A stretch of 40,938 nt of DNA, taken from the IMG/VR virus record IMGVR_UViG_2879742664_000009. One strand, given 5' to 3'. The DNA is from a virus. Its lineage: Duplodnaviria; Heunggongvirae; Uroviricota; Caudoviricetes. The notes below the pieces were generated by a model that worked only from the letters and a program-made list of their open reading frames with translations, was not told the DNA's origin and made no database searches. Shown piece after piece: positions 22,963-25,209 of the stretch. The translations under genes were made by a program, and so were the position numbers. The stretch's first letter is position 1. Each line of letters opens with the position of its first letter.

Positions 22963-24798
22963 TTACCTGCCAAAGCGCGTATAGCCAACATCATGGCTGA
23001 CATCAAAACCGCTGGATCGCGTTTCCATAACCCGCATACCCGGAGGCGAATTCACAAAAGAGACCTTGATCTCACCATCAACTTTTGGCGCAGAAGCTTT
23101 GTTAATCATGAAGGGATTCGGGCCTGTGGCACCGGAGGCGTTGTTTGACTGAGCCGGATCTACCGCCTGATAAGGTGTGTATCCCCGTGCCGGTATTCCC
23201 GTCCCATAAGCATCATAAGCACCCGCGCCCCACTGCGCAGAGTTAATGGCATCGACCGTGTCACCGGAACTGTCGGTAAACCACTCAATAATTGGCTTCA
23301 GTTTGTCCCACATATCCTGAAACCACTTAACAACCGGTCCCCAGTTATTGATTACCATCCCCAGCGGCGACCAGGCAAAAACCTTCTTCAGAAGTTCCCA
23401 GCCAGCCTCAAAATAAGGACCAATGGTTTCCCAGAGCTTCTTGAAATAAGGTCCGACAACATCCCAGTTAGTGATAATTAATCCCGCAGCCAGGGCTATC
23501 GCCGTCGCAATCATTCCAATCGGCGTCATCGACATGATCCTGCTGACAATACTGATGGCACCGCCAACGCCCATCAATCCCAGTTTCAGAATCGCAAGAC
23601 CGGCAGCAAGCCCGACGACGCCGCGAATAACCCGGGGATTTTCATCCGCAAACTTCGTGAATTTTTCCCCTAACTCCCCCAGCCATTGCGTGATATTTTT
23701 GGCGTCACCAGAAAATGCGCCGCCAATAGCCGCAAGGCCGTTAGTTGCGGTCCCCGTCATTGCCTCCCACAGGTTGGACAGCGTACCAAGCTGGGCCTGA
23801 ACACGTTTATTCAGGCTGGCCTGTTTATTCATCTTCTGCTGGATCTGATCGTAGCCATCCTTTCCTTTATCGATTAGTGCATTGACCACCTGAAGGGTTT
23901 CGGCATCATCACCAAATATTGCCTTAAGTACACCTGTTCGCTTAACGTCGGTCAGTTTTCGCAGCTTTGCCAGTTGCCTGAACATGTTATCAAGACCGCC
24001 AAAACTTCCTTTGCCGTCAGTAAAATCGAGCTGTACCCCGAGTTTCTGGCGGGCCATGATTTTATTGACGTCCCTGATTTTCTTAACGCTTAATCCGGAC
24101 TGGATAACTTTTCGCAGGGCGTTACCTGCCGACTCCCCGTTCATCCCCATCTGATCCATCATGACGCTGATGGGGGCAAGGCTCTGTGCAGCCTGAAGAC
24201 CGTCCTTGTTCACCATCTTCAGAACAGAGCTGGTTTTAGTGAAGAAGGACAACATGTTGGTATCGTCAACACCCAGATAAAACGCCTTCTGGATAGTGTC
24301 GAACAGCCCCATCATGTCTTCTGACGCCGTTCCGGTAGCATCCTGCATCTTTGCAGCAAACTCAGCAGCCGCTTCCGGTGTTTTTTTCAGTTGTACCGCA
24401 AGATAAGCTGTCGCTTTACCCACACCGCCAAGAATGTTTTCTGCCGGGATCCCCTGACGCACCAGCATCTGCATCATGTTCTGGAAATCAGCCGTTGTAC
24501 CGGGTAGCTGGTTACCCAGGCCAATAGCCAGTTTATTGATGTCCTGAAAGCTCTTTCCGACCTCGCCGTTCGCATCCATCATGGCGACTTTCAGCCCGGT
24601 GGCGGCGTTTTCCTGATCGGCATAAGATTTCAGGGAAAGCGTCAGACCCGCTGCCAGTCCGCCACCAAGCGCCAGCCCACCCTGTGACGCTTCTTCCGCC
24701 TGGCGTTTAAATCCCCGGATTTTCTTTTGCATTTTCGACAGCGCGGGAGAAAGCCTGTCGACACCGGTGATCAACGCCTTAAGCTCAAATTCCGCCAT
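22963..24798 (-). CDS. phage tail tape measure protein (Mu gp42-like)
   Basis: 611 aa, Ala/Gly-rich with hydrophobic segment; lies after tube and chaperone, before baseplate genes. Confidence 0.8.
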   Translation of the reverse strand: MAEFELKALITGVDRLSPALSKMQKKIRGFKRQAEEASQGGLALGGGLAAGLTLSLKSYADQENAATGLKVAMMDANGEVGKSFQDINKLAIGLGNQLPGTTADFQNMMQMLVRQGIPAENILGGVGKATAYLAVQLKKTPEAAAEFAAKMQDATGTASEDMMGLFDTIQKAFYLGVDDTNMLSFFTKTSSVLKMVNKDGLQAAQSLAPISVMMDQMGMNGESAGNALRKVIQSGLSVKKIRDVNKIMARQKLGVQLDFTDGKGSFGGLDNMFRQLAKLRKLTDVKRTGVLKAIFGDDAETLQVVNALIDKGKDGYDQIQQKMNKQASLNKRVQAQLGTLSNLWEAMTGTATNGLAAIGGAFSGDAKNITQWLGELGEKFTKFADENPRVIRGVVGLAAGLAILKLGLMGVGGAISIVSRIMSMTPIGMIATAIALAAGLIITNWDVVGPYFKKLWETIGPYFEAGWELLKKVFAWSPLGMVINNWGPVVKWFQDMWDKLKPIIEWFTDSSGDTVDAINSAQWGAGAYDAYGTGIPARGYTPYQAVDPAQSNNASGATGPNPFMINKASAPKVDGEIKVSFVNSPPGMRVMETRSSGFDVSHDVGYTRFGR

Positions 24799-24973
24799 GT
24801 GTGCGTTTCTCCTGCTCTATCCTGTTTGCCTGACTGACCAGCAAGGTAATTTCACTGATCGGCATATTCAGCAATTCGAAAGGATTAATGCGCCAGTAAC
24901 TGGCGCAGTCAAAGAAGCGATCAGTGAGGTATTCAGCCGTCAGGCCTGGAGGAAAAAACCAGCCACAAGCCAC
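24785..24973 (-). CDS. tail assembly chaperone -1 frameshift extension
   Basis: Overlapping ORF in the -1 frame; T_TTT_TTC heptamer at 24952-24958 (minus strand); the extension ends overlapping the tape-measure start. Confidence 0.5.
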   Translation of the reverse strand: MACGWFFPPGLTAEYLTDRFFDCASYWRINPFELLNMPISEITLLVSQANRIEQEKRTHGGI

Positions 24974-25209
24974 GCCGCTGCATTCAGGTCTGCCGGAGAC
25001 ATCTGGTCGACAGAGCTTTGCGGCACTTTCGCCAGCCGCACAATGTATTTCGACACCACATGCGCCAGAAGTCTGACTGACTCATCCTGATTCATCTGGT
25101 AGGGATACCCCAGCTCGCGGACATCCTTCCCGGTGGGTTCATCAAACTCCAGTACGGAGAGTGTCTCGCCATGAGCAGTAATCGGTTTCTTTAACTCAAG
25201 CTCTTTCAT
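24940..25209 (-). CDS. tail assembly chaperone (short form)
   Basis: 89-aa ORF between tube and tape measure; ends ...AGFFLQA* with a slippery heptamer inside. Confidence 0.6.
   Translation of the reverse strand: MKELELKKPITAHGETLSVLEFDEPTGKDVRELGYPYQMNQDESVRLLAHVVSKYIVRLAKVPQSSVDQMSPADLNAAAWLVAGFFLQA

What the first reader, a model, noticed from the sequence alone, without database searches (positions are those of the whole stretch)
24785..25209. Programmed -1 frameshift site in the tail assembly chaperone
The 89-codon chaperone ORF contains the canonical slippery heptamer T_TTT_TTC (24952-24958, minus strand) a few codons before its stop. The -1 frame continues for about 55 more codons and ends overlapping the tape-measure start, matching the conserved G/GT-type chaperone arrangement.
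Basis: partly seen in the sequence, partly recalled or inferred. Interest (0 to 1): 0.4.

Follow-up and report, generated by a model that had tools for sequence, protein, structure and literature searches.

The report
Tail chaperone programmed -1 frameshift site
A slippery TTTTTTC sequence near the end of a phage tail-assembly chaperone gene lets some ribosomes slip back one base and make a longer second protein; this is a well-known phage trick that is real and conserved here, but missing from database annotation.

Summary
An 89-codon chaperone gene (PF10109) lies between the tail tube and tape-measure genes of an SfV-like prophage. It carries an in-phase T_TTT_TTC heptamer (24958-24952, minus strand) three codons before its stop. 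The -1 frame then runs 55 codons and ends 14 nt inside the tape-measure gene. Comparative evidence supports the frameshift reading. 32 of 36 loci from species-representative genomes, plus eight phage genomes, keep an in-phase heptamer (TTTTTTC, TTTTTTT, TTTTTTG or GGGTTTT) and a 52-61 aa extension ending at the tape-measure start. The extension evolves as coding sequence in the -1 frame. Synonymous sites of GGT TTT TTC are frozen. 30 of 34 distinct loci have no ATG or GTG from which the extension could start on its own. The closest known system is phage P2 E/E+E' (91/142 aa, TTTTTTG; here 89/141 aa). No stimulatory structure sits at the usual spacing. An 8-bp hairpin 44 nt downstream is conserved at synonymous sites, function unknown. 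None of the GenBank or RefSeq records examined annotates the fusion. This copy lies in a degraded prophage with an amber mutation in the sheath gene. Ordinary biology, low interest.

The parts
24940..25209 (-). Tail assembly chaperone gene, zero frame, 89 aa, stop TGA at 24942-24940; the start ATG overlaps the tube gene stop by 1 nt
   Evidence: ORF list; PF10109 Phage_TAC_7, E = 1.9e-16, 60.3 bits; PHROG 166 tail protein
24952..24958 (-). Slippery heptamer T_TTT_TTC (zero-frame codons GGT TTT TTC = Gly-Phe-Phe); proposed site of tandem -1 slippage of two tRNA-Phe
   Evidence: Sequence; same position and phase in all SfV-clade loci; synonymous sites invariant in 3 of 3 codons against 7 of 62 elsewhere, Fisher p = 0.003; 77 of 80 IMG/VR copies keep it
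24785..24952 (-). -1 frame extension: 55 codons (PPGLTAEYLTDRFFDCASYWRINPFELLNMPISEITLLVSQANRIEQEKRTHGGI) plus stop TGA at 24787-24785; the fusion product is 141 aa
   Evidence: substitutions at codon positions 1/2/3 of the -1 frame = 542/335/994; PHROG 32181, E = 7e-39; no usable start codon in 30 of 34 distinct loci
24889..24907 (-). Conserved 8-bp hairpin UGCGCCAG-UUA-CUGGCGCA, 44 nt downstream of the heptamer, inside the extension (codons Cys-Ala-Ser-Tyr-Trp-Arg); role unknown
   Evidence: synonymous sites of the stem codons invariant in 4 of 4 against 7 of 62 elsewhere, p = 0.0005; stem invariant in 80 of 80 IMG/VR copies while the loop base varies; unique in the window; absent from the TTTTTTT clade
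22963..24798 (-). Tape measure protein gene, 611 aa; its ATG (24798-24796) lies 14 nt upstream of the end of the fusion ORF, and its own AGGAG Shine-Dalgarno sequence is at 24813-24809
   Evidence: PF10145, E = 1.3e-26; sequence
25209..25565 (-). Tail tube protein gene, 118 aa, immediately upstream of the chaperone
   Evidence: PF10618, E = 3.3e-33

Best explanation
This is a programmed -1 ribosomal frameshift of the phage P2 E/E+E' type. It lies in the tail assembly chaperone gene of an SfV-like prophage with a Mu-type contractile tail. Most ribosomes read GGU UUU UUC CUC CAG GCC UGA and release the 89-aa chaperone. A minority slip back one base on U_UUU_UUC while tRNA-Phe occupies both the P site (UUU) and the A site (UUC). 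Both anticodons re-pair with UUU, and decoding resumes at CCU. This adds 55 residues and gives a 141-aa fusion that terminates just inside the tape-measure gene. The heptamer alone appears to set the ratio of the two products, because there is no stimulatory RNA structure or Shine-Dalgarno-like sequence at the usual distance. By analogy with lambda G/GT, the shared N-terminal domain would bind the tape measure protein and the extension would recruit the tube protein; neither product would end up in the virion. What is shown: the site, its phase, its nucleotide-level conservation, the coding signature of the -1 frame and the lack of an independent start. What is inferred: the slip itself, its efficiency and the roles of the two proteins. 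In this particular copy the signal is intact, but the prophage is degraded, so the signal probably no longer serves tail assembly.
For: Gene identity and position between the tube and tape-measure genes. An in-phase heptamer at the same position in SfV, 689R6, Edwardsiella EPP-1 and Pantoea AH07. T_TTT_TTT in phiP27, ST64B, SfIV and YeP1, and T_TTT_TTG in P2, whose record annotates the E+E' join and the site. 32 of 36 loci from species-representative genomes have an in-phase heptamer and a 52-61 aa extension that ends at the tape-measure start. All 21 loci that carry the N-terminal search pattern, and so were found without reference to the extension, show this. The residue before the site varies (GGT, CGT, AAT, AGT), but its third base is always T. 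The -1 frame shows a coding substitution pattern of 542/335/994. Synonymous sites of GGT TTT TTC are frozen while the preceding Ala codon uses all four bases. 30 of 34 distinct loci have no ATG or GTG in the -1 frame upstream of the site, and the window's GTG has no Shine-Dalgarno sequence. An alphaproteobacterial ortholog uses G_GGT_TTT, and a Mannheimia P2-like phage record notes AGGGAAAG; these are ribosomal slip motifs without a long homopolymer. In E. coli U_UU.Y is the second most shift-prone A-site tetramer, H_HH.U_UU.Y heptamers are among the most efficient, and U_UU.U_UU.C shifts above 0.10% without stimulators (PMC4066793). P2 makes E (91 aa) and E+E' (142 aa) at TTTTTTG with no downstream structure (PMC3091744). 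The same scan picks out the two IS3 transposase frameshift sites in this window, which serves as an internal positive control.
Against: No protein, ribosome-profiling or reporter data exist for this site. The extension does not match Pfam PF06528 (P2 GpE), and the profile-profile comparison with P2-type E' sequences is only weakly positive (P = 0.018). A T6 run could in principle also support RNA polymerase slippage, which would give the identical protein. 3 of 80 IMG/VR copies carry GGT to GGG, which weakens the heptamer. This copy sits in a prophage remnant with an amber codon in the sheath gene. One of the two search patterns used lies in the extension, so part of that sample is biased towards having it.
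Confidence: 0.88

Rival explanations
1. Transcriptional slippage: RNA polymerase inserts an extra U on the T6 run, producing a minority of mRNAs in which ordinary translation yields the same 141-aa protein.
For: The site is a homopolymer run (6 T here, 7 T in the phiP27 clade, 8 T in L045). The protein product would be indistinguishable from the ribosomal one.
Against: Efficient slippage by bacterial RNA polymerase is reported for runs of about 9 A or T and is undetectable at T5C5 (PMC5009743). The run keeps the X_XXY_YYZ phase in every locus, which polymerase slippage would not require. Orthologs with G_GGT_TTT and a P2-like phage with AGGGAAAG have no long homopolymer.
Confidence: 0.06
2. 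The -1 ORF is a separate small gene translated from its own start codon (GTG at 24973), as some records annotate it.
For: Phage 689R6 and one RefSeq E. coli genome call it a 60-aa hypothetical protein. PHROG 32181 collects such calls. The window has a GTG 7 codons upstream of the site.
Against: 30 of 34 distinct loci have no ATG or GTG in the -1 frame between the last upstream stop and the site. The window's GTG is preceded by AATGCAGCGGC, with no Shine-Dalgarno sequence. The conserved part of the peptide begins right at the heptamer.
Confidence: 0.03
3. The heptamer is a by-product of a conserved Gly-Phe-Phe motif, and the 141-nt stretch before the tape-measure gene is non-coding spacer.
For: In-phase heptamers arise by chance about once per 339 codons. 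Most GenBank and RefSeq records annotate nothing in this stretch.
Against: The stretch evolves with a -1 frame coding signature and encodes a peptide conserved down to about 30% identity across clades. The synonymous positions of the motif are frozen. The residue before Phe-Phe varies while its third base stays T. The -1 stop overlaps the tape-measure ATG in nearly all loci.
Confidence: 0.01

Closest known systems
Phage P2 gpE / gpE+E' programmed -1 frameshift (Christie et al. 2002; Xu, Hendrix and Duda 2004, as cited in PMC3091744)
   Same: Same Pfam family for the upstream domain: PF10109, 60.3 bits here and 47.8 bits for P2 E. Same position between the tube and tape-measure genes of a contractile tail. 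The T_TTT_TTN heptamer follows Gly and Phe in the same phase. Product sizes are 89/141 aa against 91/142 aa. The -1 stop overlaps the tape-measure ATG (8 nt in P2 and SfV, 14 nt here). Neither has a proximal downstream structure.
   Different: The last base of the heptamer is C, not G, so the zero-frame residue is Phe, not Leu. The site is 3 codons before the stop, not 6. The extension does not match PF06528 and resembles P2 E' only weakly; whole-fusion BLASTP gives E = 0.3. The surrounding tail genes are Mu-type (sheath L, tube M, N, P, gp45), not P2-type. A conserved hairpin 44 nt downstream is present here and absent in P2.
Phage lambda gpG / gpGT tail assembly chaperones (Levin 1993; Xu 2013, 2014, as reviewed in PMC5009743)
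   Same: Two products share an N-terminus and come from a low-level -1 slip just upstream of the tape-measure gene; the arrangement is conserved across long-tailed phages.
   Different: There is no detectable sequence relationship. Lambda has a non-contractile tail. Lambda slips on G_GGA_AAG with tRNA-Gly and tRNA-Lys (from my own knowledge, not tested here). The roles in binding the tape measure and tube proteins are shown for lambda and only inferred here.
Phage Mu gp41, reported to use a -2 frameshift (PMC5009743, PMC2628397)
   Same: Same gene position in a homologous tail module (sheath, tube, chaperone, tape measure, N, P), with a distant relationship between the chaperone domains.
   Different: Mu gp41 is 144 aa and belongs to PF23746; it scores 24.7 bits in PF10109, below the cut-off of 25. 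It has no in-phase heptamer, and its extension lies in the other frame. So a Mu-type tail module here carries a P2-E-type chaperone and a -1 site.
IS3-family orfA/orfB and dnaX -1 frameshift signals
   Same: Tandem slippage on an X_XXY_YYZ heptamer. U_UU.U_UU.C is among the heptamers found in IS elements. Two IS3-type sites lie in this same window.
   Different: Those signals typically rely on a downstream hairpin or pseudoknot 5-9 nt away, an upstream Shine-Dalgarno-like sequence, or both. Neither is present or conserved here.

Membership tests
Conserved tail-assembly-chaperone frameshift of long-tailed dsDNA phages (lambda G/GT paradigm, Xu et al. 2004) | Two overlapping ORFs located between the major tail (tube) gene and the tape-measure gene | tested here: met
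   Tube 25565-25209, chaperone 25209-24940, -1 ORF to 24785, tape measure from 24798
Conserved tail-assembly-chaperone frameshift of long-tailed dsDNA phages (lambda G/GT paradigm, Xu et al. 2004) | [quoted passage not shown] | tested here: met
   T_TTT_TTC at 24958-24952, 3 codons before the stop
Conserved tail-assembly-chaperone frameshift of long-tailed dsDNA phages (lambda G/GT paradigm, Xu et al. 2004) | The downstream ORF has no translation start of its own | tested here: met
   No ATG or GTG in 30 of 34 distinct loci; the window's GTG lacks a Shine-Dalgarno sequence
Conserved tail-assembly-chaperone frameshift of long-tailed dsDNA phages (lambda G/GT paradigm, Xu et al. 2004) | The arrangement is conserved in relatives even where the sequence has diverged | tested here: met
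   32 of 36 genome loci and 8 phage genomes; -1 frame coding signature
Conserved tail-assembly-chaperone frameshift of long-tailed dsDNA phages (lambda G/GT paradigm, Xu et al. 2004) | Both the short and the fused protein are made at a fixed ratio, and both are needed for tail assembly | not testable with these tools
   Needs protein detection and genetics
P2 gpE / E+E' family | The N-terminal domain belongs to PF10109 (Phage_TAC_7) | tested here: met
   E = 1.9e-16, 60.3 bits against a cut-off of 25; P2 E itself scores 47.8 bits
P2 gpE / E+E' family | The extension belongs to PF06528 (Phage_P2_GpE) | tested here: inconclusive
   No Pfam hit for five extensions, while the P2 E' control gives E = 2e-22. 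hhalign of 15 extensions against 9 P2-type E' sequences is colinear but weak, P = 0.018
P2 gpE / E+E' family | A T_TTT_TTN heptamer after Gly-Phe, products of about 90 and 140 aa, and a -1 stop that overlaps the tape-measure start | tested here: met
Mu gp41 family (-2 frameshift) | PF23746 domain and an extension in the +1/-2 frame | tested here: not met
   The window protein hits only PF10109. Its +1 frame is open for only 16 codons across the stop. Mu gp41 hits PF23746
Stimulator-dependent bacterial -1 frameshift signals (IS3, dnaX type) | A conserved hairpin or pseudoknot 5-9 nt downstream, or a Shine-Dalgarno-like sequence 6-17 nt upstream | tested here: not met
   The first 60 nt downstream give z = 0.07 and no shared fold among orthologs. 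No Shine-Dalgarno-like sequence is visible upstream. The only conserved hairpin is 44 nt away

The most novel reading that the evidence does not exclude
The 8-bp hairpin 44 nt downstream of the slip site (24907-24889) has stem codons frozen at synonymous sites across the SfV clade, and it is absent from the sister TTTTTTT clade and from P2. It could be a functional RNA element tied to the recoding event. One possibility is a long-range modulator of frameshift efficiency. Another is a structure that protects the sparsely translated 141-nt stretch between the chaperone stop and the tape-measure ribosome-binding site from Rho-dependent termination or RNase cleavage, and so secures tape-measure expression. 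A simple ribosome-queueing model does not fit the geometry well: a ribosome queued behind one stalled at the hairpin would sit about three codons past the slip site (my estimate from typical footprint sizes).
Probability: 0.12. Interest if true: 0.45.

Novelty: new member of a known kind. Interest (0 to 1): 0.2.

Why it matters
The biology is textbook, so the value is mostly practical. The segment occurs in about 895 of 5,426 complete E. coli genomes and in the Shigella serotype-converting phages SfV, SfI and SfII. Yet no GenBank or RefSeq record examined annotates the 139-141 aa fusion. They leave a 141-nt gap or call a spurious 60-aa hypothetical protein (PHROG 32181). A correct joined CDS would remove a family of 'unknown function' proteins and add an essential tail protein to these genomes. 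The case also shows module mixing: a Mu-type tail carries a P2-E-type chaperone with a -1 site, where Mu itself is reported to use -2. Finally, the family offers a natural series of heptamers (TTTTTTC, TTTTTTT, TTTTTTG, GGGTTTT) at one homologous site, which could be used to study how the slip ratio is tuned without stimulators.

Tried and rejected
1. A proximal stimulatory stem-loop or pseudoknot. The first 60 nt downstream fold no better than shuffles (z = 0.07), orthologs share no fold there, and the TTTTTTT clade has no consensus structure.
2. A long-range helix in the window (CACUGAUCG...CGAUCAGUG). It gives the 100-nt fold a z of -3.25 but is not conserved, so I treat it as fortuitous.
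3. The hairpin as a terminator. No U-tract follows it and the scan does not call it.
4. A known RNA family. Rfam gave only a chance CRISPR-DR60 match at E = 0.62, on the other strand and elsewhere.
5. Pfam and NCBIfam hits for the extension: none.
6. Solved structures: no relative found.
7. The eight-sequence alignment A1 was too diverse for the search for related loci, so I used A2.
8. A viral-contig scan with P2 E+E' returned only near-identical P2 copies, so I fetched diverse E' sequences one at a time.
9. A viral-contig scan with A2 returned only close relatives. It served as a population survey but not for covariation.
10. The primary papers (Xu 2004, Christie 2002, Allison 2002) are not held (a term-length error stopped the Christie 2002 look-up). 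I therefore could not check whether SfV was already listed there.
11. I did not run structure prediction or the large protein-database searches, because the answer did not depend on them.
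Full report
WHAT IS THERE. On the minus strand the window carries a Mu-type contractile-tail module that is 98.8% identical to Shigella phage SfV over the region of the finding. In order it holds the sheath gene (27061-25565), the tail tube gene (25565-25209, PF10618), an 89-codon gene (25209-24940, PF10109 Phage_TAC_7, E = 1.9e-16), the tape measure gene (24798-22963, PF10145), and then homologs of Mu N, P and gp45. The 89-codon gene ends ...GCT GGT TTT TTC CTC CAG GCC TGA. The heptamer T_TTT_TTC lies at 24958-24952 in the X_XXY_YYZ phase, three codons before the stop. After a -1 slip, decoding resumes at CCT and continues for 55 codons to a TGA at 24787-24785, which is 14 nt inside the tape-measure gene.

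IS IT MORE THAN CHANCE. Within the window, in-phase heptamers occur about once per 339 codons. Apart from two IS3 transposase sites, only 3 of 34 are followed by a -1 frame of 55 codons or more. The configuration is therefore expected in roughly 0.3% of genes, which is suggestive only. The same scan singles out the orfA/orfB junctions of two IS3-family elements (A_AAA_AAA and A_AAA_AAG, 14 codons before the stop, with -1 frames of 299 and 303 codons). These act as an internal positive control.

COMPARATIVE EVIDENCE. Edwardsiella phage EPP-1 and Pantoea phage AH07 are only about 72% identical in DNA. Both keep TTTTTTC at the same nucleotide and phase and encode a conserved -1 peptide (FDCASYWRINP...QANRIE), while the zero frame beyond the stop decays. 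I also examined four phages that were found through the neighbouring tube gene, and so without reference to the extension: phiP27, ST64B, SfIV and YeP1. They carry T_TTT_TTT 8-21 codons before their stops, and their -1 extensions end 8-11 nt into the tape-measure gene. P2 has T_TTT_TTG at the homologous place, and its record annotates the E+E' join and the slip site; my construction reproduces its 142-aa product. All the fusions are 138-142 aa. A scan of one genome per species returned 36 loci. 32 of them have an in-phase heptamer and a 52-61 aa extension that ends at the tape-measure start. They come from Edwardsiella, Shigella, Escherichia, Buttiauxella, Citrobacter, Scandinavium, Atlantibacter, Kluyvera, Erwinia, Pantoea, Kosakonia, Mixta, Arsenophonus, Lonsdalea, Symbiopectobacterium, Sodalis and an alphaproteobacterial MAG. 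The four exceptions are three endosymbiont loci that look degraded and one partial match. One of the two search patterns lies in the extension, which biases part of the sample. However, all 21 loci that carry the N-terminal pattern also have the signal. The residue preceding the two Phe codons varies (GGT, CGT, AAT, AGT), yet its third base is always T. The alphaproteobacterial locus uses G_GGT_TTT instead.

NUCLEOTIDE-LEVEL AND CODING SIGNATURES. I compared ten ungapped SfV-clade sequences. Substitutions in the chaperone body fall at codon positions 1/2/3 as 662/390/2003 in frame 0. Downstream of the stop they fall as 542/335/994 in the -1 frame, so the -1 frame is the coding frame there. The codons GGT, TTT and TTC are invariant, whereas only 7 of 62 other codons with an invariant amino acid are invariant (Fisher p = 0.003). 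The Ala codon just upstream uses all four bases. These tests treat related sequences as independent and are descriptive. In 80 IMG/VR prophage copies, 77 keep GGTTTTTTC and three carry GGT to GGG. The site can therefore mutate, but the mutant form rarely persists.

RIVALS. Independent initiation. Some records call the -1 ORF a 60-aa hypothetical protein (PHROG 32181). But 30 of 34 distinct loci have no ATG or GTG in that frame upstream of the site, and the window's GTG has no Shine-Dalgarno sequence. Transcriptional slippage. It would give the same protein. But efficient slippage by bacterial RNA polymerase is reported for runs of about 9 A or T and is undetectable at T5C5 (PMC5009743), and here the run is 6 T. 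The phase is strictly kept, and relatives use GGGTTTT or AGGGAAAG. This rival cannot be excluded without cDNA sequencing, and I give it about 6%. Chance motif with a non-coding spacer. This is refuted.

MECHANISM. In E. coli the hierarchy of A-site tetramers is A_AA.G > U_UU.Y > C_CC.Y. H_HH.U_UU.Y heptamers are among the most efficient. U_UU.U_UU.C shifts above 0.10% with no stimulator and is used by IS elements (PMC4066793). The single tRNA-Phe reads both UUU and UUC (my own knowledge), so both tRNAs can re-pair with UUU after the slip. I found no stimulator at the canonical distance. The first 60 nt downstream fold like shuffles in the window (z = 0.07) and in P2 (z = -0.01), and neither clade has a conserved proximal stem. 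This matches what is reported for P2 (PMC3091744). The reported efficiencies are about 1 in 30 for lambda G/GT and two- to three-fold higher for P2 and its relatives (PMC5009743). A figure in that range is my inference for this site. The roles of the products are inferred from lambda only: the shared domain binds the tape measure protein, the extension recruits the tube protein, and both are absent from virions.

THE DISTAL HAIRPIN. One exists, but in an unexpected place. UGCGCCAG-UUA-CUGGCGCA lies at 24907-24889, 44 nt after the heptamer, and it encodes Cys-Ala-Ser-Tyr-Trp-Arg of the extension. Its stem codons are invariant at synonymous sites in 4 of 4 cases, against 7 of 62 elsewhere (p = 0.0005). 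The loop base and the flanking codons vary freely. The stem is identical in 80 of 80 IMG/VR copies. The palindrome is unique in the window. It is neither a terminator nor a known Rfam family. It is eroded in Kosakonia, lost in the CwR94 locus, and absent from the TTTTTTT clade and from P2. There is no real covariation, because the pairs hardly vary. Its distance makes it an unlikely classical stimulator. It sits in the middle of a stretch that only the shifted minority of ribosomes translate, so a role against Rho-dependent polarity or RNase attack is plausible but untested.

CLASSIFICATION. The chaperone scores higher in PF10109 (60.3 bits) than P2 E itself does (47.8 bits). Mu gp41 belongs to PF23746 and falls just below the PF10109 cut-off; it has no heptamer, and its extension lies in the other frame, consistent with the -2 shift reported for Mu (PMC5009743, PMC2628397). 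So a Mu-type tail module here carries a P2-E-type chaperone and a P2-type -1 signal. The extension is not recognised by PF06528, and the profile-profile comparison with nine diverse P2-type E' sequences is colinear but weak (P = 0.018). Its homology to E' stays open. Its equivalence in position, size and stop-start overlap is clear.

STATE OF THIS COPY. The sheath gene has an in-frame amber codon (CAG to TAG, codon 143, 26633-26635) relative to SfV and an E. coli prophage. Only about 17.4-29.9 kb of the window matches SfV-like phages, and IS elements surround that part. The recoding signal is intact, but this prophage is probably defective. The fusion here is 141 aa rather than 139. A synonymous change in tape-measure codon 2 (GCT to GCG) destroys the usual TGA, and 13 of the 80 IMG/VR copies share that 141-aa ending (THGGI or AHGGI).

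NOVELTY AND VERDICT. The phenomenon has been well known since lambda G/GT, P2 E/E+E' and the survey by Xu et al. (2004). I could not read that paper, so it may already list SfV. The SfI and SfIV genome papers that are held do not mention a frameshift, and the SfIV paper calls the chaperone a hypothetical protein. No record I examined annotates the fusion: not SfV, 689R6, EPP-1, AH07, phiP27, ST64B, SfIV or YeP1, and not two RefSeq E. coli genomes. The segment occurs in about 895 of 5,426 complete E. coli genomes. I classify this as a new, or at least unannotated, member of a known kind. The only mildly unexpected feature is the conserved distal hairpin.

Noticed in passing
window 26633-26635 (minus strand), sheath gene 27061-25565: The tail sheath gene carries an in-frame amber codon (CAG to TAG at codon 143) relative to SfV and E. 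coli 2014C-3338. This splits it into ORFs of 142 and 337 aa. There is no indel.
   Followed up: yes
window about 17400-29900 against the rest of the window: Only about 12.5 kb of the window, from the baseplate genes to the major capsid gene, matches SfV-like phages. The flanks are rich in IS elements, so this is a prophage remnant in a Shigella-like, IS-laden genome.
   Followed up: partly
window 10013-10315 (-) and 11836-12174 (-): Two IS3-family orfA genes (HTH_Tnp_1) have in-phase A_AAA_AAA and A_AAA_AAG heptamers 14 codons before their stops, and -1 frames open for 299 and 303 codons. These are classical transposase orfAB frameshift sites.
   Followed up: partly
window 13003-13329 (+), 29933-30259 (+), 37034-37360 (-), 40136-40462 (-); also 10970-11809 (-) and 37578-38417 (+): A 108-aa transposase orfA occurs four times and a 279-aa rve-domain orfB twice, so the window holds multiple copies of the same insertion sequences.
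   Followed up: partly
window 24889-24907 (minus strand): An 8-bp hairpin UGCGCCAG-UUA-CUGGCGCA inside the -1 extension, 44 nt after the slip site, has stem codons frozen at synonymous sites across the SfV clade (p = 0.0005) and a free loop base. It is absent from the TTTTTTT clade and from P2. Its function is unknown.
   Followed up: partly
window 24785-24798: A synonymous change in tape-measure codon 2 (GCT to GCG) removes the usual TGA of the -1 frame. The fusion is therefore 141 aa (ending in GGI) instead of 139, and the overlap with the tape-measure gene is 14 nt instead of 8. 13 of 80 IMG/VR copies share this ending.
   Followed up: yes
IMG/VR loci L137-L216 (3 of the 80): Three prophage copies carry the synonymous change GGT to GGG, one of them also TTC to TTT. 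This breaks the first position of the heptamer and leaves only a U_UUY tetramer. They may be decaying copies or low-efficiency variants.
   Followed up: no
L042 (alphaproteobacterial MAG) 1758-1764; L133 (Mannheimia phage 587AP1): Homologous sites use different slippery motifs: G_GGT_TTT in L042, and AGGGAAAG as noted in the Mannheimia record. The family therefore holds a natural series of heptamers at one homologous position.
   Followed up: partly
window 24852-24928 (minus strand): A 10-bp long-range helix (CACUGAUCG...CGAUCAGUG) encloses the hairpin and gives the 100-nt fold a z-score of -3.25 in the window. Orthologs do not conserve it, so it is probably fortuitous.
   Followed up: yes
L006 828-1010 (RefSeq WP_001314907.1); L002 1828-2010 (URC08943.1): Some annotations call the -1 extension a stand-alone 60-aa hypothetical protein, and PHROG 32181 (unknown function) collects such calls. 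This protein family is probably an annotation artefact of the unrecognised frameshift.
   Followed up: partly
L011 (phage Mu) 3553-4132 compared with the window: Mu gp41 belongs to a different Pfam family (PF23746) and extends in the other frame, while this otherwise Mu-like tail module has a P2-E-type chaperone. That is an example of module mixing within a tail gene cluster.
   Followed up: partly
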